From the IMG/VR virus record IMGVR_UViG_2061766007_000501: a stretch of 20,000 bases of DNA. One strand, written 5' to 3'. Of the stretch, positions 2-20,000 are shown piece by piece. A model generated the notes under the pieces. That model searched no databases. It was not told where the DNA came from and saw nothing but the letters and a program-made list of their open reading frames with translations. How positions within the stretch are numbered: position 1 is the first letter of the stretch; every line of letters begins with the position of its first letter. Source of the DNA: an uncultured virus (IMG/VR IMGVR_UViG_2061766007_000501). Lineage: Duplodnaviria > Heunggongvirae > Uroviricota > Caudoviricetes. Made by a program: the position numbers and the translations under genes.

Positions 2-3000
2 ACCGAGCAGGAAGATGAGGCTGAGACAAAGCCTGCCGTTGAAACAAAGCAGCAGGAGAAGCCAGTTGGTAAAGACCTGACACAAGTAAGGCTGCGTGAA
101 CTCCAAGAAGGTGAGGTGTGCTATGCAGAGCGTAGGTTTACCGAGGATAAGAGTTTTGTATTGACGGGTGGTAATAATAAGATTGAAACAGTGGCAGATG
201 TGGCATACATCTTCCGCTGCCTGCAAGACAAGGCTATTGAGCACGCCTTTATGGTGTTTGTTAAGAACGGAGAACCTACCATTGTGCACGTAGGTATGGG
301 CACTATCAATCAGACAAATGTTGACTTTGCTCCATTAGCAGCCCTTGCCGAAGATATGCAACCTGACGAAATCTACTTTGTGCATAACCATCCAAGTGGT
401 AACTTGCAGCCATCCAAGGCCGACATGTCACTGGTAAGCGGATTTAGGAAAGCTATCAAATCTGACATACCGTTAACCAACCTTATCATCGATACATACA
501 AGCACCAGTATCGTGTGTTTGCCGGTAATTCCTCGTACATTGATGAGGGTGAGGTAAGGAATGACAATGGTGAAAACCGTCAACTTCCATTGTTTGCATT
601 TGATGAGCGTGTATTCCATGATAATTTCCTGCCAAGAAAAATCAGTAGTTCGGCAGATGTATTCATCACTGCATCACTGCTTCGATTGGGCGATAACAAA
701 AAGATTGGATATGTTGTCATGGATCAGGCGGCAACTGTGATGGGTAATCTTTACTTGCCCGTTAGCAATGTTAGGGATATCACAGAAGACATGATGAGAG
801 ACATGATAAAGAACATCATGCTAATGAACGGTACCCAAATAGCATTGCATGGTACGGCCAAGTTTATAAATAGGGAAGTCACGCAGTTTACCAAAGCATT
901 CAATACCTTGTCTAAAGGAGAGGTGAGGGTAACTGATGTGATAGCCATGAATGGAGCCGATGGCGACTACCAAGGTTATTACAGTGCGCATGACAATGAT
1001 GTAATGGAGCCTAATTCTGTTTATGGAACCGTTAATGAGCCTGGAGGAACAATAACCTACAATGAGGTACGTGACGATGGCAATGTGCCGCAAAAAACAG
1101 GGAAAGGCTACAAAGTGTTTGTTTTGAAAGACGGTAAGCTCTATCCTCCAATGGTGGCTAATCCTAATGGTGCAGCTACACCAGTGGGTGTGTGGCTGGA
1201 AGCCCATGCAGCACCTGTGGCTGGCACCAGTAAGACTGGCAGACCACAAGTAAAAGCAGGTGGCAAAGGCACTCAGGGTGGTAGTGGTACGTCGGCGTAT
1301 CGTCCAGGATGGCATTTAGGCGAGATACCATACGCAAAGCAGTTCAACCGTGTAGATGAGAATGGCAATAAAAACCTGTTCCCTGCCAATTTCGTGTGGG
1401 CAGAAGTGGAATATGCCAACGATGTGGACTATCAGGAAGAAGCACGCAAAGAGGGTACCAATGCCAACGGCAAGTATCAGCACTCGTTGGCCGGCCTGAA
1501 GCGTGTGCCTGAGAATGGCAGTTATCGTTATCGTACTAACCCTGACCCAACAACCGATGAATGGATCATAACAGGTGCCATGAAGGTAAACCGCATACTT
1601 ACTCCAAGCGAAGTGGATGAAATGGTAAGGGCTGCAGGACGTGAGCCACAGAAACGTCAGGAAGGTGCAGTTACTGATGAGCAGGTTGGAGAGCTGAATG
1701 AAAATCTGTTTGGTATTCCACAAAGGCGAGCTGGCGAAGATTTGTTTGCCTTTGCTGAGCGTGTGGCAAATGGTTATGACAAGAGACGCAGTGAAGCGGC
1801 TTCCAATGTAGCACGGGATAGTGGTAAAGAGGAAATACCTTTGTCCCATGATGAGGCTGTGGCACAGGCTAAACAGTATGAACAAGAACATAAGGGTGCT
1901 GCTCGTACAATCGTGTTGGATAAGTCAGGTGACATGGTTCAGCAGCTGGTTGATGCAGGTGTCAGCCGTGATGTTGCCCAGGAATGGGTTGATGAAGGTG
2001 ATAGTGATGCGGCATACAACGAATTTCACGATATTGTAATAATATTTAATCCACGTGTTGGAAAAGACACTCTAAATGGCTATCTTTGCCATGAGAATGC
2101 ACATAGATACCTCGACTCTTTGCCAGCAGATGAGCGTGCAAGGTTAGTTGATATGGTATATAGAAGATTGTCTAATGCCAACAAAAAGCTAAAAGAGATA
2201 GCAGATTATGTGCATGAGGCTTATGCTGACAGGAGTGATGAAGAGCAGAAGGAAGAGTTTGTTTGCCACTTCCTGCAACGTGCAGCCATGACTAAGAAGA
2301 TGACGCTCGGAGAGAATGTTGAGTATGTTATCGAGCATTTTGACAAGTATGGCGAGCTAAATATATTACGTGACATTATAACTTTTATTGATAATGGAAG
2401 ACAAGAAGAAACAGGAAACGGACAACTTTCTGGCCGACAGCGGGGACGGATGGAAGATGAAATGCGGACACCCGACTTCGAAAAAGAAAAAAGAAAAAAA
2501 GACATCGTAAGCAACCCATCGGGTGTTAACATCACCATGCGTGACAAAGCTGCTGCCCGTGCTGCATACGAAAAAGAGGTTAGCAGTGCATCATATCAGG
2601 CACGTGAGGCTTTGCAGGATAGTATGCGAGGCCTGCACGCATTGTATAAAGCTGTGCTTGGTAAGGCGTTTACCAAAATTGAAGATGTTCCGGGCTTTGA
2701 GAATGCTTATACGGCAGAGAACCGTTTGAGCAGCGAAAGTTCCGGGCAGCAGGAAGAGTATGGTGTTAAATTCATGGTGCCCCTGCTGGATGCGGTCAGC
2801 AGGCTGACTGGCAATGATAAGGATGGGGAAAATATGAACAAGCTTACCGACTACATGATGGCTAAACACGGGTTGGAGCGAAACCGTGTGTTGGCGGCAC
2901 GTGACGCTAGGCGAGTGAGTGATGACTGGCTTCGTGATGCCTTGCAAAATCTAAACGGCAACCTGAAGCGTGATTTGGCAAACCTAAAAGGCAGGCTGAC

Positions 3001-5710
3001 TCGCAATGAAATCAACCAGGCACAGTTTGACACGATGAAGGTTGCATTGGAAAATAAAGCTGCAAAGGAAAAGGTTGCCTATGAGCAGGAAGCGGAGAGA
3101 ATGCGCCAAGCTGCCGAGGCGGAAAATAGGCAAAGAGATTATGCTGGTCTGACATCCCTGACAGGTGTAGAACCTAATGACGTGGCAGGCGCTGAGGCTG
3201 AGGCAAAGCGGATGGTTGAAGAATACGAGCGTGAGCATAAGCCAGAGGATATCAAAGACCTATGGGATAAAGTACGTGCCGCAACACGCAATACATTGGA
3301 GAAAATCTACAAGAGCGGTTTGTTGAGTAATGATGCGTATCAGAATACACTGAAAATGTTTGAGTATTACATCCCACTACGTGGCTTTGATGAAGAAACA
3401 AGTGATAAGGTGTATGATTACCTCTATGACAATGACGGTCCCCTTAAAGGCAGGATATTACAATCCGCAGGAGGAAGACGCAGTAAGGCAGATAACCCGT
3501 TTGCATATATATCTCAGATGGCTGACAGAGGCATCATGGAGGGTAACCGCAACCGCATGAAGCAAACCTTCTTGAACTTTGTGCTGAACCACCCTACCGA
3601 CCTGGTGAGCGTGAGCGATATGTGGGTTGAGTATAATTCTCTGGCCAATGAAGGAAAAGGTGGATGGGTAGCCATATTTCCTGATATTGACCCAAAAGAC
3701 ACGCCAGAGGAAGTGCAACAGAAAATTGAGGATTTTGAAAAGCGTATGAAGGAACTGCACGACCAGCAGCCTGACAAATACAAGCGTATAAAAGAGGAAC
3801 CCAATATCCCATACCGTGTGCTGAACAACAACCTGCGTGAGCATCAGGTAATAGTGAAGCGAAATGGCGTACCTACTGTGCTTACCATCAATGGCAACCC
3901 ACGTGCGGCACAGGCGTTGAATGGCATGACTAATCCCGATACTCGCCTTAGCAAGCTGATGCAGGCCATCAACGAGTGGTTAACACAAATGTTGCGCTTT
4001 ATGAGCAACGTCTATACCACATTGTCCCCAGATTTTGTGCTCAGTAACTTCCTGCGTGACTTTGGCTATACAGTTATCATGTCTGGCATGAAGGAGAATG
4101 CTAACTACTTGAAAGCATTTGAAAAGAACAGGCTCCGCTTTAACCCCATCACCATGCACAGGCTGTTTAAGAAGTTCCAAAATGGCACATTGGATGAAAA
4201 CGATCCGATAGAAAAGATGTTCCATCAGTTTATGGTTAACGGTGGTGAGACTGGCTACACCAACGTTCTGGATATTCAGGGACACAAGAAGAAGATAGAG
4301 AATATATTGCGTAGAAATAATGGCAATACAGCCAAAAAAGCCTGGGATTTGCTGGCAGAGAATTATGACCTGCTGAACAGGAGCGTGGAAAATGTGGCTC
4401 GCTTCGCTGCGTTTGTGACAAGTAGGGAAATGGGTGGAAGTGTTGAAAGGAGCATTTGGGATGCCAAGGAGATATCGGTCAACTTCAACAAGAAGGGCAG
4501 TGCCGACAGGTTCTTTAACAGCACAAGTACCACATGGCAGGGTAACGTCGCCGGCGGCATAGGTGCAATAGGCAGGCTCACACAGGTATTCTTCAATGCT
4601 GCCGTGCAGGCACTCACTAATTTCTTAAGGGCATACAGTTATAACCCAAAGAAAATGACGGGAGCCATAAGCGGTATTGCTCTTGTTGGCCTGCTGCAGC
4701 CAATCTTAGCAGAACTGCTCAGTGGCAATGATGACGACGACGGAGATTACTATGACCTGCCTGAATATTTAAGACGTACCCATCTCTGTTTCCGTATTCC
4801 TGGCACAAAGAACTGGGTAACCATACCGATGACGCAGGAGCTGCGTGCCATCTTCGGATTTGGTGAAATGGTATCAGGTATCATCACTGGCAAGGAGCCG
4901 CAGAATCCTGCAGATTTTACGATGAAAACCATTGAACTGGTCAGCCAGTCACTTCCTGTTGACATGTTTGAAGGTGCCGGAGGACTTAGTAAGTTTGTAC
5001 CCTCACAGGTACAGCCAGCCTATGAGATATGGGTGAACAAGGATTGGACAGGACTACCAATCTACCGTCAAGATGTTTATCCTGGTGACGAGAACAAGCC
5101 TGAATGGACAATGGTATATAAGAGTACGGACAAGCATCTTGTCGAGGCCTCCAGATTACTGAGCCACCTTTCAGGGGGTAAGGGAGAATACAAGCGAGGC
5201 TTTATCGAGATAAACCCTGCATGGGTGGAGCATTTGGGCGAAGGCTATCTTGGCGGTATATGGAATACTTTCATAAAAAACAAGAAAACCATTGAAACTA
5301 TCTTTGGACAAAGGGAGTTTGAGCCGAGAAATATGATGCTTTTGAACCGTGTGCTGTATCGCAGTGATGAACGTTCACAGGGTAGAAAGACACAGGAACT
5401 GTTCTATAAATACAAGGAAGAAGCCGAAAAGACGAAAGCAGAGGTGAAAGGATACCAGAAGGAACTGGAAAAGAATGGGGACGTATTCGATGAGGCTGCA
5501 ATGATTGACTACCTGAATTTCTCTGATGAGTATGGTCGCTATCAGATTTACGAAAAGTACCGTCCTGAGATAAATGCAGCCAAGAGGGGAAAGAAAGTTG
5601 CCATCAATGAAGAGGACAAGGTGAACGAAGAGTTCTATGAAAATGAGGAAAAACGCCTCATGAAAGAGATGGTTGACGAGATGGAACAGTTCAACAAGGA
5701 ACGCAAATAG
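2..5710 (+). CDS. Large polyvalent protein (5'-truncated): JAB/RadC-like domain, degenerate second JAB, YRPGWH domain, zincin-like metallopeptidase, coiled coil, LPD38-like C-terminus
   Basis: Frame is open from position 2 (TEQEDEAE...VRLRELQEGEVCYAERRF), so the true start lies upstream. JAB motif E..HNHPSGNLQPSKAD (HNHPSG at 383-400). HENAH at 2090-2104 with downstream EEFVCH. C-terminal DYYDLPEYLRRTHLCFRIPG..WVTIPMTQELR resembles LPD38. Confidence 0.85.
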   Translation, partial: TEQEDEAETKPAVETKQQEKPVGKDLTQVRLRELQEGEVCYAERRFTEDKSFVLTGGNNKIETVADVAYIFRCLQDKAIEHAFMVFVKNGEPTIVHVGMGTINQTNVDFAPLAALAEDMQPDEIYFVHNHPSGNLQPSKADMSLVSGFRKAIKSDIPLTNLIIDTYKHQYRVFAGNSSYIDEGEVRNDNGENRQLPLFAFDERVFHDNFLPRKISSSADVFITASLLRLGDNKKIGYVVMDQAATVMGNLYLPVSNVRDITEDMMRDMIKNIMLMNGTQIALHGTAKFINREVTQFTKAFNTLSKGEVRVTDVIAMNGADGDYQGYYSAHDNDVMEPNSVYGTVNEPGGTITYNEVRDDGNVPQKTGKGYKVFVLKDGKLYPPMVANPNGAATPVGVWLEAHAAPVAGTSKTGRPQVKAGGKGTQGGSGTSAYRPGWHLGEIPYAKQFNRVDENGNKNLFPANFVWAEVEYANDVDYQEEARKEGTNANGKYQHSLAGLKRVPENGSYRYRTNPDPTTDEWIITGAMKVNRILTPSEVDEMVRAAGREPQKRQEGAVTDEQVGELNENLFGIPQRRAGEDLFAFAERVANGYDKRRSEAASNVARDSGKEEIPLSHDEAVAQAKQYEQEHKGAARTIVLDKSGDMVQQLVDAGVSRDVAQEWVDEGDSDAAYNEFHDIVIIFNPRVGKDTLNGYLCHENAHRYLDSLPADERARLVDMVYRRLSNANKKLKEIADYVHEAYADRSDEEQKEEFVCHFLQRAAMTKKMTLGENVEYVIEHFDKYGELNILRDIITFIDNGRQEETGNGQLSGRQRGRMEDEMRTPDFEKEKRKKDIVSNPSGVNITMRDKAAARAAYEKEVSSASYQAREALQDSMRGLHALYKAVLGKAFTKIEDVPGFENAYTAENRLSSESSGQQEEYGVKFMVPLLDAVSRLTGNDKDGENMNKLTDYMMAKHGLERNRVLAARDARRVSDDWLRDALQNLNGNLKRDLANLKGRLTRNEINQAQFDTMKVALENKAAKEKVAYEQEAERMRQAAEAENRQRDYAGLTSLTGVEPNDVAGAEAEAKRMVEEYEREHKPEDIKDLWDKVRAATRNTLEKIYKSGLLSNDAYQNTLKMFEYYIPLRGFDEETSDKVYDYLYDNDGPLKGRILQSAGGRRSKADNPFAYISQMADRGIMEGNRNRMKQTFLNFVLNHPTDLVSVSDMWVEYNSLANEGKGGWVAIFPDIDPKDTPEEVQQKIEDFEKRMKELHDQQPDKYKRIKEEPNIPYRVLNNNLREHQVIVKRNGVPTVLTINGNPRAAQALNGMTNPDTRLSKLMQAINEWLTQMLRFMSNVYTTLSPDFVLSNFLRDFGYTVIMSGMKENANYLKAFEKNRLRFNPITMHRLFKKFQNGTLDENDPIEKMFHQFMVNGGETGYTNVLDIQGHKKKIENILRRNNGNTAKKAWDLLAENYDLLNRSVENVARFAAFVTSREMGGSVERSIWDAKEISVNFNKKGSADRFFNSTSTTWQGNVAGGIGAIGRLTQVFFNAAVQALTNFLRAYSYNPKKMTGAISGIALVGLLQPILAELLSGNDDDDGDYYDLPEYLRRTHLCFRIPGTKNWVTIPMTQELRAIFGFGEMVSGIITGKEPQNPADFTMKTIELVSQSLPVDMFEGAGGLSKFVPSQVQPAYEIWVNKDWTGLPIYRQDVYPGDENKPEWTMVYKSTDKHLVEASRLLSHLSGGKGEYKRGFIEINPAWVEHLGEGYLGGIWNTFIKNKKTIETIFGQREFEPRNMMLLNRVLYRSDERSQGRKTQELFYKYKEEAEKTKAEVKGYQKELEKNGDVFDEAAMIDYLNFSDEYGRYQIYEKYRPEINAAKRGKKVAINEEDKVNEEFYENEEKRLMKEMVDEMEQFNKERK

Positions 5711-5740
5711 TTAAAATAAGTTCTAGCCATGATTAGTTTT

Positions 5741-5784
5741 CGTGCAGGGGTTGTGTCGTGATTTGGCGCAGCCCCTGATTTATT
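5741..5784 (+). terminator. Probable intrinsic terminator / stem-loop after the polyvalent gene (copy 1)
   Basis: caggggttgtgtc / ggcgcagcccctg stem with G-U pairs on the + strand, followed by atttatt. Confidence 0.65.
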
Positions 5785-5882
5785 GCCATCAGACATCCGC
5801 TTCAATAGTTAAATAAATATAAAGCAGGGTATAGGCAAGGTGCGTGCCTATTTTGGGCTCTGAAAATAAATCGTGAAAACTC

Positions 5883-5912
5883 TTGTAAGTGAAATATTTT
5901 TCCGTACCTTTG
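5883..5912 (+). promoter_or_regulatory. Bacteroidetes sigma-A type promoter for the HU-like gene
   Basis: TACCTTTG (-7 box) at 5905-5912 with TTGT upstream at 5883. Confidence 0.6.
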
Positions 5913-5984
5913 CCGTGCTTTGCAAAGCTACACGTGTATAGAGAGAGACAACAGATTGTTTAACTAATTCAAAATTTGAGAGAG

Positions 5985-6527
5985 ATGAGTTTGATGTTTA
6001 AGAAAGTGAGCTCGACACTGAAATTCGACAAGCAGAACCCCAAGACAGTGTTCCGACTGCAGACGGTGCGCCAGTCGAAGGTGACGAGCGAGCAGCTAAT
6101 TAATGACGTTCACCGTGCATCTGGCGTAAACAAGGCGCAGACGCAGGCGGTGATTGAGGGTCTGATGGACAGCCTCTGCCATTTCATGGACTTGGGTCAC
6201 ACGGTGCAGATGGGTGGCTTTGGCACATTCCGGCCATACTTCCGAACCAAGGCACAGGACAGCCTTGACAAGGTGGGTGCAGACAATGTGGTGAGCTGCA
6301 AAATACAGTTCTATCCTGGCAGGCAACTGAGGACGGTGATGAAGAACATTTTGCTGGAGGACAGTGAGCCTGGTCCCGACAATGACGAGATGATAGCAGT
6401 GGCTACCGCAAGCGGTGTAATTCCCGTCAGTGGTAACCAGCCTTCAGGAGGTGGCAGCACACCTGGTGGCGGTGGCAACACAGGTGGTGATGGCGGCGGA
6501 AACGGTGACGACGACCTGGACATCTGA
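5985..6527 (+). CDS. Bacteroidetes HU/IHF-like DNA-binding protein with Gly-rich acidic tail
   Basis: SGVNKAQTQAVIEGLMDSLCHFMDLGHTVQMGGFGTFRP is an HU-fold signature. KIQFYPG and the GGGSTPGGGGNTGGDGGGNGDDDLDI tail are typical of the Bacteroidales subfamily. ATG at 5985 preferred over TTG at 5976. Confidence 0.85.
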   Translation: MSLMFKKVSSTLKFDKQNPKTVFRLQTVRQSKVTSEQLINDVHRASGVNKAQTQAVIEGLMDSLCHFMDLGHTVQMGGFGTFRPYFRTKAQDSLDKVGADNVVSCKIQFYPGRQLRTVMKNILLEDSEPGPDNDEMIAVATASGVIPVSGNQPSGGGSTPGGGGNTGGDGGGNGDDDLDI

Positions 6528-6554
6528 AAGCCTTGATGAGGCTGTGTGATAGGC

Positions 6555-6596
6555 GAGGGGGCTGTACCTTTTTGGTACAACCCCCTTCTCCTTTCA
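6555..6596 (+). terminator. Stem-loop, probable terminator of the HU-like gene
   Basis: agggggctgtacc-loop-ggtacaaccccct followed by a pyrimidine tract. Confidence 0.55.
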
Positions 6597-6730
6597 GCAC
6601 ACCGCTTGCCTCGTGTGAGTCATGCAGCGTGAGTGCAGGGAGGTGCGCCCGATGCCTCACTATACTTGTCGGGCATGATGTCTGATGCCTCCCTGCCTCT
6701 GCATTTGGTGAGACTCTATCTTATGCTATT

Positions 6731-7597
6731 TTACGTTATTGCATAATCTGCACTGGTTATCGCCTTGATGGCCTTGCGTGGGTTCCACTGGTTTTCCATC
6801 AGAGCAACGATGAAACGTTTCCCCTTCTCTCTCCAAACCGTATATTGGTTGGTGTTTATGGAGCCATCGCTACGGGTGAAGGTCTGCGTCCTGACGGAGT
6901 GCAGTCCCCAGCTCGTGTATGGCGAACGGAGCATCCACATACCGCTCTGACGGTAGATGATGCCTGCATCCTTTAACTTCTGGGTAAGCATGTGCACCTC
7001 CAGTCCTACCGACTTGGCGATCTGTGTAGTGGTCATGGTGTTCTGGCTCTGCATGGTCATGTCGTAGTAGTTCACCTTGGGAGCCTGCTTCTTCAGCTCC
7101 TCATCCTGCAGCTCTATCACGGCATCCTTCTGCTCTATGGCCACCTGCTGACTCATGTTGTCAGCCTCCAGGCTCCTGATGCGTTCCTGCTGCCTTTCGA
7201 TGGTCTTCTGTCCAATCTGCAGGGCACGTGCCATGATTTCCTCATCGGTCATCTGCCCGGTAGTGGCAATATAGCCGCCAGTCTTGCGGATGGAGGGAAG
7301 AACTTCTGATGTCACCCACTTGCGGAAAGGCTTGGCTTGCTCGCTGTCAGAACGGATGATTACGTCATATAGTCCACTTTCGGTGACAAATATCACTTGT
7401 TGTGTGCGTCCAAGGCTGTCGATGGTGTCCACCAGATGGACATCATCTTCCTCCAGTCTGTTTTTCACGTTTCTGGCGTTGGTTATCCCGACAGCCTTAC
7501 ATACATCACTAAGGCAGAACATGGGATTTTCTGCCGTTCCTGCAGTCCTAATCTCTCCAAACTGCTCACTTTTGAAAATCTGAATCGTATTATTCAT
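6731..7597 (-). CDS. Phage antirepressor (BRO-N + ANT/KilAC C-terminal domain)
   Basis: FGEIRT..NPMFCLSDVCKAVGI..FVTESGLYDVIIRSDSEQAKPFRKWVTSEVLPSIRKTGGY (BRO-N). QAPKVNYYD..MTTTQIAK..TVWREKGKRFI (ANT C-terminus). Confidence 0.95.
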   Translation of the reverse strand: MNNTIQIFKSEQFGEIRTAGTAENPMFCLSDVCKAVGITNARNVKNRLEEDDVHLVDTIDSLGRTQQVIFVTESGLYDVIIRSDSEQAKPFRKWVTSEVLPSIRKTGGYIATTGQMTDEEIMARALQIGQKTIERQQERIRSLEADNMSQQVAIEQKDAVIELQDEELKKQAPKVNYYDMTMQSQNTMTTTQIAKSVGLEVHMLTQKLKDAGIIYRQSGMWMLRSPYTSWGLHSVRTQTFTRSDGSINTNQYTVWREKGKRFIVALMENQWNPRKAIKAITSADYAIT

Positions 7598-9454: not shown

Positions 9455-10411
9455 ATGGCAACAGAAGTTATTTCTATTCCCGAAAATGGAGCAGGCGGCA
9501 GCAACACCGTACCTGCATGGTATCCTGCCATGATGAACGGAGGCCTGGGCGGTGGTCTTGGCCTTGGCGGTTGGGGTGGCGGCATCCTGGGTTTCCTCAT
9601 TGGATTGATGTTTGGTAACAACGGCTTTGGCGGTGGCTTGTTTGGCGGTGGCTATCGTAACAATGCAGCAGGCACTGCCTATCTTGGCAACATGATCAGC
9701 AACGACAATGGACGTGATTTGCTGATGCAGGCAATCAACAATAGCGGGGAGCGCAGCACGCAAGCTGTGCAGCAGCTCTCAACCATGATTGGTCAGGACT
9801 TCAATCTGGTGAACGGTGCCGTGCAGAACCTGCAGACTGCCTTGAACCAGGTGGCGAATGCGCAAGGCATCAATGCTCTGCAGGTCATCAACGCCATCCA
9901 GGCAGGCAACGCAAGCCTGGCAAGCCAGTTTGCTCAGTGCTGCTGCGAGAACCGTCTAGGCATGTGTCAGCAGACCAATGCCATCAACCAGGGCTTTGCC
10001 GGCGTACAGCAGAGCATAGCAGCCAAGAGTGCAGCAGACCAGTTATCAACTTGCCAGCAGACATACGCTCTGACCGACACCATGAACCGCAACTATCTTG
10101 CTCTTGACAACAAGATCGATGCGATGGAGTCAAGCCGCAAAGACCGTGAGTTGGCAGCCAAGGATGCGGAAATCGCAACTCTGAAATCACAGAACTTCAC
10201 GGCAGGCATCGTGCAGCAGGCAGTGGCTCCTATCAACGCACAGCTGGCTGGCCTTGCCAAGGAGGTGGATGACATCAAGTGCAAGCAGCCTTCAACGGTA
10301 AGCGTGCAGTATCCCAACCTTGTGGCTATGAACGCTACCCCTTATGTAAGCGGTGGCTTCTATCCCAACGGCAACGGCTTCAGTGGCTGGGGTGGTAACG
10401 TGGTGTTCTGA
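9455..10411 (+). CDS. Gly-rich hydrophobic N-terminus / coiled-coil 'CCC' phage protein, function unknown
   Basis: GGLGGGLGLGGWGGGILGFLIGLMFGNNGFGGG segment, long Q/N/A heptads, AQCCCENR, DDIKCKQP. Confidence 0.85.
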   Translation: MATEVISIPENGAGGSNTVPAWYPAMMNGGLGGGLGLGGWGGGILGFLIGLMFGNNGFGGGLFGGGYRNNAAGTAYLGNMISNDNGRDLLMQAINNSGERSTQAVQQLSTMIGQDFNLVNGAVQNLQTALNQVANAQGINALQVINAIQAGNASLASQFAQCCCENRLGMCQQTNAINQGFAGVQQSIAAKSAADQLSTCQQTYALTDTMNRNYLALDNKIDAMESSRKDRELAAKDAEIATLKSQNFTAGIVQQAVAPINAQLAGLAKEVDDIKCKQPSTVSVQYPNLVAMNATPYVSGGFYPNGNGFSGWGGNVVF

Positions 10412-10417
10412 TAAAGC

Positions 10418-10774
10418 ATGAGGAGGACGGATATGGGATGCTTTAGCATAACTACCAATGCAGGTGGAGTGCCTTACCTGACCACGACAAACATCACCGT
10501 GTCTGCCACGGCTGTTGACTTTGCCCTGGGATGGATGCGCAGGCAACTGCCACCTGTGGGCTACCTGACAATCAGGATAGCCAACGAGATACCTACCGGC
10601 ACTACTGCCACATTACCCATTACCATCACGCTGAATGGCGTTACACGTGCATTGACATTGTATGACGGGACAGCCGTTACCGTAGCCGACCTGATAGGCG
10701 GTACTGGAGTGATAACAGTGTTCAATGACCGTTTCAACGGCATTCTTCAGCTGATGTCACAGGGTGTGGCATAA
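10418..10774 (+). CDS. Hypothetical Thr/Val-rich beta-strand protein
   Basis: 118-aa ORF starting 6 nt after the previous stop; beta-rich composition; start may be the second Met. Confidence 0.8.
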   Translation: MRRTDMGCFSITTNAGGVPYLTTTNITVSATAVDFALGWMRRQLPPVGYLTIRIANEIPTGTTATLPITITLNGVTRALTLYDGTAVTVADLIGGTGVITVFNDRFNGILQLMSQGVA

Positions 10775-10810
10775 TGCAGTTTATTATACAATCATTAAAA
10801 ACTAAAGCTT

Positions 10811-11323
10811 ATGTTTTCAACGTTACAAAAAGGCACACTGATTTACGTGCTTGACAGACGGGGTGATGACCCTGTGCTAAAGCAGGGATTGCTGGCTGAG
10901 GATGCCATGAAATTGGCACCCAACCTTACACAACCCCTGCAGATGGGCATGATGCCAGAGCAGCTTGTAAAGCTGACGATGGAATCCGCTAACGGTGACA
11001 AGATGGAGCTGACAAGTCTCCCTGGTAGCCAGAACACATTTACATATCCAGATGGTAAGATTACGGTGACAGAAAGCCATGATGCTATACAGGGCATTAT
11101 CAGTGGCTTGAAACGCCAAAGTGACGAAGTGGTGAACGGATACGATAGGCACCTGCATCTGAGTGATGTCTATAAGAACATGCTCATGGACTTGAACCCC
11201 GAATATCGCAAGAATGAGGAGCGTGACCGTGAGATGGAGTCACTGAAAAGTGATGTGAACGAAATGAAGGGCATGATGAAGCAGTTGCTTGCTATGAACG
11301 GTGGAAGCGTAGGTGGTAAATAA
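10811..11323 (+). CDS. Hypothetical protein with C-terminal coiled coil
   Basis: MFSTLQKGTLIYVLDR...LNPEYRKNEERDREMESLKSDVNEMKGMMKQLL; AT-rich translation initiation region. Confidence 0.8.
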   Translation: MFSTLQKGTLIYVLDRRGDDPVLKQGLLAEDAMKLAPNLTQPLQMGMMPEQLVKLTMESANGDKMELTSLPGSQNTFTYPDGKITVTESHDAIQGIISGLKRQSDEVVNGYDRHLHLSDVYKNMLMDLNPEYRKNEERDREMESLKSDVNEMKGMMKQLLAMNGGSVGGK

Positions 11324-11335
11324 AGAACAAGCAAT

Positions 11336-11650
11336 ATGGCAAGATATTTGATTATATCGTCTGACAACGAAGACCAGAAGATCAAGGATGCGCTGGCGAG
11401 TATAGGCGCAGAAGAAGCTGGGATGCGCAGCGGGATGCGCAGCGGCTATCGCCGTGACAGCAGGGGCTATCCTATGGATGTGACCAATCTGCGCAGCGGG
11501 ATGCGTGGCAACTATCACGACAACCAGCAGGAGATTGATGCTTTGGAGGAGCAGATTCAGGAACTGAAGATGCGTAAGAAGCAACTGGAACATTCGGAAG
11601 AGGGTATGCGCCAGATGGGTGGTGCATACGGCCCCTATCCACAGTGGTAA
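11336..11650 (+). CDS. Low-complexity hypothetical protein with MRSG repeats and coiled coil
   Basis: GMRSGMRSGYR..LRSGMRG, encoded by gcgcagcgggatgcg repeats. Confidence 0.75.
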   Translation: MARYLIISSDNEDQKIKDALASIGAEEAGMRSGMRSGYRRDSRGYPMDVTNLRSGMRGNYHDNQQEIDALEEQIQELKMRKKQLEHSEEGMRQMGGAYGPYPQW

Positions 11651-11660
11651 TTGTGAAGTG

Positions 11661-11692
11661 GGTTTGCGGTGGAGATATCTTCATCGCAAACC
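11661..11692 (+). other. Intra-operon stem-loop
   Basis: ggtttgcggtggag-atat-cttcatcgcaaacc. Confidence 0.55.
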
Positions 11693-11733
11693 ATTTCCAG
11701 TATTTAACTTGAAAAATAGAAAGGAGTGCCGAT

Positions 11734-12156
11734 ATGTGTATGTGTAATGTGATAACTAGATTCCCTGCTGACATGCTTTCGTATATCAATGCCTATGGCT
11801 TGCACTTCAACAAGCCGCTTTGCGAATTTGCCGTAAAGAACATGCGTAAGAAGGACGTTAGCGGCAAGCCGATTGAGATAACTCCCGTCACCCGTGAGCA
11901 GTTGAGCATCATGATGAAAGAGGCTGGCTTTGCTCTTAACGACAAGAACGTTGTGTGGGATGGCGTGTATCTGGCCAATATGTGCCTTGCGGACTATATG
12001 GGTGGAGCCATTGCGGACAACCGTCACCTGGCGATGTTTGTCAAGCAGACACTGGATGACCCTGATGGCTGTGAGGGGCAGACATTCAACCGCTGGTATG
12101 CAGACATGTGTTTGGCTGGCAAGCAGCAGTATATTGACTGGGAAGAGATGATTTGA
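11734..12156 (+). CDS. Conserved phage hypothetical protein (YGxHFNKxLCEFAV family)
   Basis: YINAYGLHFNKPLCEFAVKNM..DGVYLANMCLADY..LDDPDG..FNRWYAD..IDWEEMI. Confidence 0.8.
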   Translation: MCMCNVITRFPADMLSYINAYGLHFNKPLCEFAVKNMRKKDVSGKPIEITPVTREQLSIMMKEAGFALNDKNVVWDGVYLANMCLADYMGGAIADNRHLAMFVKQTLDDPDGCEGQTFNRWYADMCLAGKQQYIDWEEMI

Positions 12157-12157
12157 A

Positions 12158-12529
12158 ATGCGTAGGCAGGACTTCACCATAACAGATACAGGATGGTGGA
12201 TAACCGTATTCCACGGTGCCACACCTGACAAGCTTGGTGAGGTGGCTGCCTCGCTGATTGATGCTGGCGAAGGTACCAGAAAAACCGCTGAGGCTATATG
12301 GGTGCTGCAAAAGCCTAACACAGGCTACACCTATACAAACTTCGATAACAAGAGGGGGGTGTCCGTTATCGGCAGGGCAACATCTGACAGGCAATACGCA
12401 AATACGTTCACCCATGAGCTAAAGCATATAGTGGAACACCTATCAACCTATTATGGAGTTGACCCGAAGAGCGAGCAAGCAGGCTATCTGCAAGGATATA
12501 TAGGTGCAAGGATGCTGACTTTTTATTAA
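12158..12529 (+). CDS. Small zincin-like metallopeptidase (HExxH)
   Basis: TFTHELKHIVEH followed by SEQAGYLQGYI (third-ligand Glu). Confidence 0.75.
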   Translation: MRRQDFTITDTGWWITVFHGATPDKLGEVAASLIDAGEGTRKTAEAIWVLQKPNTGYTYTNFDNKRGVSVIGRATSDRQYANTFTHELKHIVEHLSTYYGVDPKSEQAGYLQGYIGARMLTFY

Positions 12530-13689: not shown

Positions 13690-13733
13690 TAAAGGTAGCG
13701 ATGATATTGCTGAGGCTGTTGTTATCCATTAAC
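13690..13733 (-). promoter_or_regulatory. Putative phage promoter GTTAAyGGATAA-N24-TAnCTTT for the lysis module
   Basis: Minus strand gttaatggataa (13722-13733), 24 nt, taccttta (13690-13697). Confidence 0.55.
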
Positions 13734-13736
13734 CAA

Positions 13737-13776
13737 GAAAAAAAACTGCCATCTATCCTCACGGACTGATGGCAGC
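13737..13776 (-). terminator. Intrinsic terminator of the minus-strand accessory operon
   Basis: ctgccatc..gatggcag stem followed by a T-tract on the minus strand. Confidence 0.75.
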
Positions 13777-13825
13777 AAGGCTTAAATGATCAAAAAAAAA
13801 GAATGTGTATTGCTGTAGGTTGAGG

Positions 13826-14230
13826 CTACCGTTTTGGCGGCAGCATGAGCCAGGCTGTTCGCCCATCGGGCAGTTCGTGGGGTATCACGCGCAACCGGAT
13901 GGGTTCGTTGGGTAGCATCATGTCATAGAGTATGCGACTGACGGTTGGCACCAATGTCTCGAAGCCCACGCAACGATGCTTGGTGTTGTACATGATTTCT
14001 GCAACAGGCGTATGGCTGTCCTTCGGCAAGGGTGGGTTCAACTCAAAGCCATATATGTCACCACAGACTGAATTAGCCACAAAAAACACTATCACCTTAG
14101 CCTCTTTACCTTGCATCACACCCAACTTTGCAAAGAGTTTCTTTGACAGTGTGATACTGGTGTCATTGGGGTCTAAGTCCGCATACAGACCCCTGTACTT
14201 GAATCGATGGATTAATTCTTTAATGTTCAT
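13826..14230 (-). CDS. Hypothetical phage protein (134 aa)
   Basis: Start re-assigned to ATG 14230 (MNIKELIH), which follows a GGAGG site and avoids overlap with 14244..14492. Confidence 0.75.
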   Translation of the reverse strand: MNIKELIHRFKYRGLYADLDPNDTSITLSKKLFAKLGVMQGKEAKVIVFFVANSVCGDIYGFELNPPLPKDSHTPVAEIMYNTKHRCVGFETLVPTVSRILYDMMLPNEPIRLRVIPHELPDGRTAWLMLPPKR

Positions 14231-19125: not shown

Positions 19126-19281
19126 TCACTGTTTATGAATTATCCTACTGAGCCCTGGCAAGGACTGGCAATGTCCATGAAAGCGGTATGGAGGGTGTGC
19201 AAGCAATACGCAGATAAGCCTGAGCGAACTTTCTTTGTCACGCTCCCTTACCAAATTATATGACCTCCTGTAATTATCCAT
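19126..19281 (-). CDS. Possible 51-aa ORF (or structured RNA) downstream of the pentamer array
   Basis: MDNYRRSYNLVRERDKESSLRLICVLLAHPPYRFHGHCQ...; stop 4 nt before the next ATG; the second copy (19472-19594) keeps the frame. Confidence 0.4.
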   Translation of the reverse strand: MDNYRRSYNLVRERDKESSLRLICVLLAHPPYRFHGHCQSLPGLSRIIHKQ

Positions 19282-19287
19282 AAAAAA

Positions 19288-19383
19288 ACTACGCTTTGCT
19301 TTGCTTCGCTTTGCCCNNNNNNNNNNTACTTAGCTCCGCAAGGCTGGGCTTTGATTAGCTTGGCTGGGCTATGCTTTCGCTAT
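19288..19383 (-). repeat. Pentamer (AGC-NN) array, copy A, interrupted by a 10-N gap
   Basis: Minus strand: at AGC gaa AGC at AGC cc AGC ca AGC ta ATC aa AGC cc AGC ct TGC gg AGC ta AGT [gap] GGC aa AGC ga AGC aa AGC aa AGC gt AGT. Confidence 0.85.
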
Positions 19384-19461
19384 TTATTTCACTTTCTTTA
19401 CGTCAAATCTTCCATATCTACGCCTGTATGTGCCAACACCGTACCTCATACCTGCTATATC
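19384..19461 (-). CDS. 3' end of a second Cas7/RAMP-like gene copy, cut by an assembly gap
   Basis: DIAGMRYGVGTYRRRYGRFDVKKVK* versus EIAGLRYGVGTYRRRYGRYEIKKVK* in the 19699 gene; changes are mostly synonymous. Confidence 0.75.
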   Translation of the reverse strand, partial: DIAGMRYGVGTYRRRYGRFDVKKVK

Positions 19462-19602
19462 NNNNNNNNNNTAAGCCCTGGCAATGCCCATGAAAGCGGT
19501 ATGGAGGGTGTGCAAGCGATACGCAGATAAACCTGAGCGAACTTTCTTTGTCACGCTCCCTTACCAAATTATATGACTTTCTGTAGTTGTCCATTTTAAA
19601 AA

Positions 19603-19698
19603 ACTATGCTATGCTGCGCTTCGCTGCGCTCTGCCGTGCTTCGGCTACGTTTCGCTTTGCTTCTCTATGCTCAGTTAAGCTTTGCTTTGCTATGTTGA
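19603..19698 (-). ncRNA. Pentamer (AGC-NN) array, copy B; putative guide-type RNA
   Basis: Begins 2 nt after the stop: AAC at AGC aa AGC aa AGC tt AAC tg AGC at AGA ga AGC aa AGC ga AAC gt AGC cga AGC ac GGC ag AGC gc AGC ga AGC gc AGC at AGC at AGT, then a T-tract; 19 triplets, 13 of them AGC. Confidence 0.7.
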
Positions 19699-19998
19699 CT
19701 ATTTCACTTTCTTAATTTCATACCTTCCGTACCTCCTGCGATAGGTGCCGACCCCGTAACGGAGGCCTGCTATCTCAGCTATCTCCATCACCTCCGACTC
19801 GTTCAGCTGGCTCTCGTCAAACCAGCACGTGCATTCAGCACTCCATTCAGGTATGATGGCACGGGTAGTGGTAATCTTCACATTCTTGATGCCAACGGCA
19901 CGAACGTCCACATAGATGCCAAGGTTGTACAGTTTATCTGGTGGAATCATCTTATCCCTGAAATCAAGCTTTGCATCATCGAATATGCGGAAGCTCTT
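19699..19998 (-). CDS. Cas7/RAMP-like (Vipr-like) protein, N-terminus outside the window
   Basis: Frame is open to the window edge (KSFRIFDDAKLDFRDKMIPP...). YVDVRAVGIKNVKITTTRAIIPEWSAECTCWFD..AGLRYGVGTYRRRYGRYEI shows a thumb-like hairpin and a C-terminal G-x-G-x-x-R-x-x-x-G-R-(Y/F) loop as in RAMP proteins. Confidence 0.7.
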   Translation of the reverse strand, partial: KSFRIFDDAKLDFRDKMIPPDKLYNLGIYVDVRAVGIKNVKITTTRAIIPEWSAECTCWFDESQLNESEVMEIAEIAGLRYGVGTYRRRYGRYEIKKVK

Positions 19999-20000
19999 CT

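What the first reader, a model, noticed from the sequence alone, without database searches (positions are those of the whole stretch)
19288..20000. Cas7/RAMP-like gene directly followed by an AGC-NN pentamer array: candidate phage RNA-guided (VIPR-like) system
Seen: 2 nt after the stop of the 19699 gene there is a non-coding run of 19 units with 5-nt period. Each unit has a fixed triplet (13 AGC, 3 AAC, plus AGA, GGC, AGT) and a variable dinucleotide (at aa aa tt tg at ga aa ga gt cga ac ag gc ga gc at at). The run ends in a T-tract. The protein ends in AG..YGVGTYRRRYGRY. Established: RAMP/Cas7 proteins have a C-terminal Gly-rich loop and polymerise on RNA with a fixed nucleotide period. From memory, not verified here, VIPR systems pair such a phage protein with GGY/NN repeat RNAs. 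Inference: each subunit binds one AGC triplet and the NN positions spell a gapped target, giving a minimal guide system, possibly against competing phages. No cas1/cas2 or repeat-spacer array is visible in the window. The AGC rather than GGY triplet may mark a distinct variant.
Basis: partly seen in the sequence, partly recalled or inferred. Interest (0 to 1): 0.95.

Follow-up and report, generated by a model that had tools for sequence, protein, structure and literature searches.

The report
Rumen phage VIPR with AGY guides
A cattle-gut phage carries a real copy of VIPR, an RNA-guided gene-silencing system described in 2026, but with an A-G-C instead of G-G-Y guide scaffold; its own targets were not found, while in related phages the guides aim at DNA right beside the cassette in sister phages, and two protein residues appear to set the scaffold letter.

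Summary
Real VIPR locus. The 99-aa gene end matches SUSP1 Vipr (PDB 36pp, E 1e-9); a 90%-identical full-length relative folds like Csm3/Cas7 RAMPs. The 19-unit AGC/NN array is as described. The second array (19381-19282) is not a tandem copy but the other allele of the same locus, at about half depth. No target was found for the window's guides. Relatives add three things I did not find in the four VIPR preprints. (1) A-first arrays go with loss of both residues that read G1 in SUSP1 (His17, Asp177): 42 of 42 scored tree rows, but only 3 independent changes. (2) A-first guides obey the 1-nt-skip rule. (3) Targets sit beside the cassette in kin phages: the empty-site junction (44 of 44 hits) or tape-measure alleles 1.4-5.3 kb away (16 of 26 guides; controls 0). 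This recalls free-standing homing endonucleases, without a nuclease. The scan noted an AGY VIPR before on other DNA (e1-5889602), without targets. Verdict: new variant of a known kind.

The parts
19699..20000 (-). 3' half of vipr (C-terminal 99 aa of a ~189-aa RAMP protein: thumb Arg, Gly-rich loop with Thr-Tyr-Arg where SUSP1 has Asp177-Trp178-Arg179)
   Evidence: PDB 36pp_D SUSP1 Vipr E 1e-9; phrog_4652 E 2.6e-14, the family of SUSP1 Vipr; alignment
19598..19696 (-). Guide array, allele A: 19 AGY-type units (11 + 8, one 6-nt unit at 19646-19641), ending in T6; putative vrRNA, one guide with a slip or two guides
   Evidence: sequence; no fold above shuffles, z 0.52; no Rfam match
19472..19594 (-). 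Start of the short downstream ORF, allele A, cut by the scaffold gap
   Evidence: aligns with 19281-19126
19462..19471 (.). 10-N scaffold gap joining the two alleles; not a real junction
   Evidence: contigs join 19459 directly to 19775
19384..19459 (-). vipr 3' end, allele B (22 of 76 nt differ from allele A, 4 of 24 residues)
19282..19381 (-). Guide array, allele B: different AGC/NN units, ending in T7; the N gap at 19317-19326 stands for 45 unseen letters
19126..19281 (-). 51-aa ORF after the T-run; no family match; not vap1; a similarly placed short ORF follows the arrays of L006/L007
18207..19121 (-). 304-aa phage gene next to the cassette (context; 28-38% relatives in 10 of 401 genomes of the genus of a Prevotella MAG)

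Best explanation
A VIPR system of a bovine-gut Bacteroidales (probably Prevotella) phage. The array is transcribed into a ~95-nt guide RNA; Vipr subunits polymerise on it, one per pentamer, bury the AGC triplets and display the NN pairs, which pair with double-stranded DNA skipping every third base, and the filament blocks transcription there (mechanism shown for SUSP1, inferred here by homology). In this clade the pocket that reads the first base has changed (His17>Asn, Asp177>Thr), which fits an A-first scaffold (Thr seen in the window; Asn seen only in the 90%-identical relative P0002; causal link inferred). The guide is the variable part: two alleles coexist about 1:1 in one sample, swapped together with the gene's 3' end between conserved flanks (shown). 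By analogy with clade members whose targets were found, the guides most likely aim at close kin phages, at the allele beside the cassette or at a kin vipr gene (inferred; not shown for this window).
For: Homology to SUSP1 Vipr. AlphaFold model of P0002 pLDDT 94; top structural matches all Csm/Cmr/Cas7-11 RAMPs, Z 10.2, rmsd 3.3 over 136. DNA-contacting residues K33, R39, G87, K88, R138, R179 of SUSP1 kept, K82 as Arg. AGY arrays at 13 of 13 nearest loci. Residue/scaffold tally: 10 A-first clusters all lack His17 and Asp/Glu; 33 G-first clusters all keep His17 or the acidic residue; column 17 ranks first of 189. Skip rule in A-first guides: 44 exact hits, all one site, 22 of 22 NN; L052 29/32, L059 21/22, L074 23/26 with own locus 19, 15, 19. 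Alleles: flank depth 12.3/15.9, alleles 5.7/7.5 and 5.6/6.65.
Against: No target for the window's guides: 1 chance-level hit and 0, 0 in IMG/VR; 13 hits against 13 control hits and 0 hits in 401 and 381 genomes; none at E<0.01 in fetched records. No expression data. No structured tail and no vap1 after the gene; in SUSP1 both matter. Only 3 independent residue changes, sign test p 0.25; columns 134 and 53 track the scaffold as well; L122 (His/Asp) and L079 (His/Thr) have mixed T/A arrays and were among 8 of 51 clusters left uncalled. The N-terminal half of the gene is outside the window.
Confidence: 0.85

Rival explanations
1. Selfish-cassette reading: VIPR cassettes of this clade spread or defend themselves like free-standing homing endonucleases. 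Guides mark the empty or rival allele next to the cassette in co-infecting kin; the bound filament silences it or stalls replication, so that cassette-bearing genomes or recombinants are over-represented.
For: The L010 cassette (5727-6996) replaces a 335-bp two-ORF segment of kin; the target spans the right junction and is destroyed by the cassette. 0 of 5 target-bearing records encode Vipr (same query rings in 5 of 5 carriers); 0 of 3 carriers hold the target. 16 of 26 guides hit tape-measure alleles 1.36-5.34 kb from vipr, controls 0. Free-standing endonucleases cut hundreds to thousands of bases from their gene (PMC2988022, passages).
Against: No nuclease in these cassettes; no inheritance data; linkage alone is enough to explain why stable guides aim at alleles tied to the cassette (it prevents self-targeting after recombination). 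For the tape-measure family only kin records were searched. Nothing of this is shown for the window's own guides.
Confidence: 0.35
2. The window's guides aim at unrelated elements (satellites or prophages), as for SUSP1 and P. fulva, not at kin.
For: Published targets are mostly satellites and resident prophages. The single exact IMG/VR hit of units 1-10 lies in frame in an integrase gene, the gene class SUSP1 targets.
Against: That hit is in an AT-rich contig, does not extend to units 11-18 (5 of 14) and about one hit is expected by chance (my estimate). All targets found for clade relatives were in kin.
Confidence: 0.3
3. The system is decaying or inactive here: tail and vap1 lost, array drifting as a simple repeat.
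For: No hairpin tail, no vap1 downstream, one phase slip, no target found.
Against: The reading frame is intact and allele differences are mostly silent (22 nt, 4 residues). Tail-less arrays ending in T-runs are shared by L006/L007 and by the rumen clade L059-L078, whose guides hit kin vipr genes. Fixed triplets with free NN are kept in both alleles.
Confidence: 0.08
4. A stand-alone CRISPR Cas7 (type III or IV-B-like) gene next to an unrelated microsatellite.
For: Best structural matches in the fold libraries are Csm/Cmr/Csf RAMPs.
Against: SUSP1 Vipr is found by sequence alone (E 5e-22 for L006) while no Cas7 is; no Pfam cas family in the 17 window proteins scanned; the array tracks the gene across the tree and its NN positions encode real targets in relatives.
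Confidence: 0.02

Closest known systems
VIPR type II of phage SUSP1 (bioRxiv 10.64898/2026.04.26.720920, .720927; PDB 36pp)
   Same: Vipr protein family (phrog_4652), Gly-loop and thumb Arg, pentamer guide with fixed triplet and free NN, phage-borne; 1-nt-skip, wobble-aligned targets in clade relatives.
   Different: AGY instead of GGY (GGY>AGY is among the substitutions tested in SUSP1, whose text says motif perturbation abolished silencing; the figure was not seen); Asn/Thr at the G1-reading positions; no structured 3' tail; no vap1 after the gene; guide starts right at the vipr stop.
Non-canonical VIPR arrays (YNNNG class in .720920 methods; GAC, CAC, WGT, TGH triplets in bioRxiv 10.64898/2026.10.21.760802)
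   Same: Vipr-like protein beside a period-5 array with a non-GGY triplet; AGY fits YNNNG, and AGT fits WGT.
   Different: In the text I saw neither paper gives targets, a residue basis or a Bacteroidales example for them; their figures and tables were not visible.
vipr-targeting and solo vrRNAs of SUSP1-family phages (bioRxiv 10.64898/2026.10.15.759431)
   Same: Guides that hit the vipr gene of relatives and spare their own locus (L059, L067, L074); a vipr remnant with a lone guide (L194).
   Different: Targets at the cassette's empty-site junction and in linked tape-measure alleles of kin are not in the parts read; 'homing' and 'Bacteroid' have 0 occurrences there.
Free-standing homing endonucleases of T4 (seg/mob; PMC2988022)
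   Same: Cassette aims at a site in kin that lack it, near its own locus; own allele immune.
   Different: RNA-programmed, no nuclease domain found; biased inheritance not shown.

Membership tests
VIPR | Small stand-alone RAMP (Vipr) with RRM core, thumb and Gly-rich loop | tested here: met
   (fold from P0002, 90% identical to the window fragment)
VIPR | Adjacent non-coding tandem pentamers, fixed triplet plus variable NN (GGY or a related consensus such as YNNNG) | tested here: met
   related consensus admitted
VIPR | Minimal locus without cas operon or CRISPR array, in a phage | tested here: met
   17 window proteins scanned: phage families, no cas family; DNA upstream of 20000 not available, L006/L007 show an array and a small unrelated gene there
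VIPR | NN positions specify a DNA target with a 1-nt skip (this window's guides) | tested here: inconclusive
   no target found
VIPR | NN positions specify a DNA target with a 1-nt skip (A-first guides of the same protein clade) | tested here: met
VIPR | Guide is transcribed and forms an RNP that binds DNA and represses transcription | not testable with these tools
   the one RNA run laid covers only 84 nt of the gene at 90-95% identity
VIPR type II (SUSP1-like) | Canonical GGY triplet | tested here: not met
   13 AGC, 1 GGC of 19
VIPR type II (SUSP1-like) | vap1 gene (phrog_5926) after vipr | tested here: not met
   51-aa ORF without family match; vap1 present in L010 and L020
VIPR type II (SUSP1-like) | Conserved structured 3' tail on each guide | tested here: not met
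   array ends in a T-run; z 0.52 and 0.09; no terminator-like stem on the minus strand
Class 1 CRISPR Cas7 module | cas operon and repeat-spacer array | tested here: not met
   no cas family among 17 proteins, no Rfam CRISPR repeat in the window; holds for the window only
Free-standing homing element | Target near the cassette, present in cassette-less kin and absent from carriers | tested here: met
   for the L001/L010 relative; not found for the window
Free-standing homing element | DNA cleavage and biased inheritance | not testable with these tools
   no nuclease seen in the cassettes; needs mixed infections

The most novel reading that the evidence does not exclude
An orthogonal AGY-reading VIPR clade in gut Bacteroidales phages works as a nuclease-free, RNA-programmed kin-exclusion or homing cassette: guides are swapped by recombination within a population and aim at the allele beside the cassette in sister phages, and a two-residue switch (His17/Asp177 to Asn/Thr) keeps its guides separate from GGY systems.
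Probability: 0.35. Interest if true: 0.85.

Novelty: new variant of a known kind. Interest (0 to 1): 0.62.

Why it matters
VIPR is proposed as the ancestor of Class 1 CRISPR effectors, and only GGY systems have been tested. A natural A-first clade with a candidate two-residue specificity switch makes scaffold recognition directly testable and would give an orthogonal protein-guide pair for programmable repression. Targets next to the cassette in kin phages point to a role not in the parts of the preprints I read: selfish spread or kin discrimination, which also bears on the open question of how new guides arise without Cas1/Cas2 (here, allele exchange across conserved flanks).

Tried and rejected
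Tandem duplication of the cassette: rejected, the second copy is an allele. Target searches for window guides: units 1-10 in IMG/VR gave one hit in an AT-rich integrase gene that does not extend; units 9-17 and allele B gave 0; L006 guide 1 gave 0; 401 genomes with 2 mismatches gave 13 hits against 13 controls, best extension 28 of 36 (L141); 381 of the same genomes with units 5-16 and 3 mismatches gave 0. An in-frame 18 of 24 self-match at the end of ORF 15365-15144 was reached by 14 of 300 shuffles and that protein had no relative to test. Allele B fits 6 of 9 residues of a kin version (P0123) of the neighbouring 304-aa gene, own version 4 of 9, but 2 of 15 shuffles reach 6: a weak lead only. 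Close kin genomes were not found. The RNA run gave no cover of the array, which shows nothing. Pfam has no family for the protein; the ESM Atlas gave only unnamed clusters. No promoter or terminator signal above shuffles. The fold libraries did not list the SUSP1 Vipr entry, so no structural superposition with it was made.

Full report
1. Observation. On the minus strand an ORF runs in from beyond 20000 and stops at 19699; 2 nt later 19 triplets follow at 5-nt spacing (13 AGC, 3 AAC, AGA, GGC, AGT), with one 6-nt unit at 19646-19641, and end in six T. Period-5 self-identity is 55 of 90 (window mean 23.4, sd 4.7) and AGC density 13 per 100 nt (at most 8 elsewhere and in 200 shuffles); a lenient run-length test gives only 11 against a shuffle maximum of 10. 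A second gene end and array lie at 19459-19282 between two 10-N gaps. Contigs of two runs of one bovine gut sample show that this is an allele: flanks have depth 12.3 and 15.9, the allele A contig 5.7 and 7.5, and a contig of depth 5.6 and 6.65 joins 19459 straight to 19775; the inner gap holds 45 letters. A run from another study carries a third version, at under 90% identity, with many gaps in the 3' half of the array. These runs may include the sample the window came from, so they explain the assembly and are not independent support. The two alleles differ at 22 of the last 76 nt of the gene but in 4 of 24 residues, so guide and gene end are exchanged together.

2. The protein. The fragment matches phrog_4652 and, alone among PDB sequences at a meaningful E-value, SUSP1 Vipr (36pp_D, E 1e-9); SUSP1 Vipr is itself phrog_4652. 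The nearest full-length relative, P0002 (189 aa, 90% identical over the 99 aa), folds with pLDDT 94 and its top structural matches are Csm, Cmr and Cas7-11 RAMPs (Z 10.2). The window is phage DNA (antirepressor, replication initiator, large polyvalent protein); the host is inferred to be Prevotella-like from the habitat and from 28-38% relatives of the neighbouring 304-aa gene in 10 of 401 genomes.

3. Arrays travel with the gene. 13 of 13 nearest loci carry AGY/NN arrays after the stop. Three architectures are visible: T-run-ended arrays without tail or vap1 (window, L006, L007); strings of guides with a short linker, the last ending in a T-run (rumen loci L059-L078); and guides with hairpin tails followed by a vap1 homologue (L001, L004, L019, L020, L051 groups).

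4. A candidate scaffold code. The cryo-EM preprint says G1 is read by His17 and Asp177. The window has Thr at the Asp177 position and P0002 has Asn17. Over 134 loci, 94 distinct proteins and 51 clusters at 85% identity: 10 clusters have A-first arrays (9 Asn/Thr, 1 Ala/Gly); 33 have G-first arrays (26 His/Asp, 4 His/Glu, 1 His with the C-terminus missing, 1 His/Thr, 1 Asn/Asp); 8 were left uncalled for few or mixed units. Of the 42 called rows on the tree all fit 'A-first only if both residues are lost'; there are 3 independent changes, all concordant, p 0.25, which cannot reach significance. The His/Thr group L020 sits inside the Thr clade and has gone back to mostly G (171 G, 73 A, 22 T). 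Against: L122 (His/Asp) has 16 T, 10 A, 6 G; L079 (His/Thr) 13 T, 10 A, 2 G; columns 134 and 53 track the scaffold equally well. The code is an inference.

5. The skip rule and the targets in relatives. One AGT guide of the L001 group, written with 1-nt skips, has 44 exact hits in IMG/VR; all 44 are one site, the end of a small gene, in frame with the skip on the wobble base, 22 of 22 NN with the preceding unit; the last three units do not pair. The flanks of that site are the flanks of the cassette: L010:5727-6996 replaces L151:1681-2017, and the target (1998-2030) spans the right junction. None of the 44 loci and 0 of 5 whole records encode Vipr (positive control 5 of 5); 0 of 9 carrier loci and 0 of 3 carrier records hold the target (2 of 5 asked for were not held). 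In a second phage family the cassette lies just before a tape-measure gene (phrog_9959). Of 26 guides scored on 5 records (366 kb; records 54-70% complete, one fetched to 79.7 of 87.9 kb), 16 have 1-nt-skip hits at E<0.01, against 0 for no skip, 0 for two skips and 0 for reversed guides; all 16 lie 1.36-5.34 kb after vipr, at 10 distinct sites by my reading, so they are not 16 independent events; 3 come from Asn/Thr A-first cassettes. Own alleles score lower in 5 of 7 guides checked on whole records (for example 19 against 27 of 28); in the other two, which have no strong hit, the own record is highest or tied. Among 116 A-first guides scored on 1.69 Mb, 10 pass E<0.02 with one skip (4 of them circular, as the subject had been fetched by the pattern), 0 with none, 1 with two, 1 reversed; guides of L059, L074 and L067 hit kin vipr genes and spare their own (21 against 15 of 22; 23 against 19 of 26; 17 against 12 of 18). 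Of 15 guides of the L001/L004 type only the 2 versions of the empty-site guide hit the 5 records tested.

6. The window's own targets were not found, and no close kin genome was reachable. Sections 4 and 5 therefore describe the clade; for the window they are predictions.

7. Mechanism. Shown here: family membership, array anatomy, allelic exchange, gapped targets in relatives. Taken from the preprints: filament on the guide, triplex, repression. Inferred: that this tail-less, vap1-less version works the same way, that Asn/Thr gives A preference, and that its guides aim at kin. Whether cassette-linked targeting drives biased inheritance, as free-standing homing endonucleases do, or merely reflects that linked targets avoid self-attack, is open.

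8. Literature seen. Two searches found four VIPR preprints; a search for Vipr with homing found two unrelated papers. 10.64898/2026.04.26.720920: whole text read, supplement PDF searched for six terms, 'Bacteroid' and 'Prevotella' 0; figures, tables and data files not seen. 10.64898/2026.04.26.720927: parts 1-2 of 6 and passages. 10.64898/2026.10.15.759431: parts 1 and 3 of 8 and passages. 10.64898/2026.10.21.760802: passages and section 4.22. PMC2988022: passages. Non-GGY triplets are thus already in print in general terms; the residue pattern and cassette-adjacent kin targets were not in what I saw.

9. Verdict. A true VIPR member, not of the canonical SUSP1-like type (GGY, tail and vap1 not met); new variant of a known kind. 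Interest 0.62: the window itself is one more VIPR locus, but it opens a clade in which scaffold recognition and a possible selfish role become testable.

Noticed in passing
L010:5727-6996 against L151:1681-2030: VIPR cassette replaces a two-ORF segment of kin phages, and its most conserved guide targets the junction of that segment.
   Followed up: yes
L020-L058, L084 (vipr at 3001-3603, tape-measure gene from about 4400-5450): Two different VIPR cassettes (His/Thr with mixed GGT/AGT guides; Asn/Thr with AGY guides) occupy the same place before a polymorphic tape-measure gene and target other alleles of it; the N-terminal alleles are 56-98% identical.
   Followed up: yes
L059-L078, arrays after vipr: Rumen phage clade with several guides in a row, separated by a short constant linker, no hairpin tails; some guides target kin vipr genes.
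   Followed up: partly
L194 (G240:C252 near 13703-14100): 45-codon vipr remnant followed by one GGT guide with tail directly before the tape-measure gene, no vap1: a lone guide.
   Followed up: no
L001:1790-1860, L019, L020:3700-3770, L080 after vipr: Guide tails form a nested hairpin with a GTTCGA loop reminiscent of a tRNA T-loop (resemblance recalled); no Rfam match at the tails tested.
   Followed up: partly
L117 (Dechloromonas MAG) 4001-5250: Distant Vipr with Ala17/Gly at the G1 positions and AGC arrays: an independent A-first system.
   Followed up: partly
L122, L079, L124: Vipr homologues with other scaffolds: mixed T/A-first units (L122, L079) and GG-purine units (L124).
   Followed up: no
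window 2-5710 (+): Over 1900-aa phage protein with RadC-like JAB and LPD38 domains (large polyvalent protein), 5' end outside the window.
   Followed up: no
window 9455-12529 (+): Cluster of small genes on the strand opposite to the phage genes around it, including a Gly/Ala-rich 318-aa protein (phrog_16490) and a 123-aa protein with an HExxH motif; function not examined.
   Followed up: no
window 19126-19250: The 51-aa ORF region also has two alleles in the source sample (6 differences in 120 nt), so the exchanged tract extends beyond the array.
   Followed up: partly
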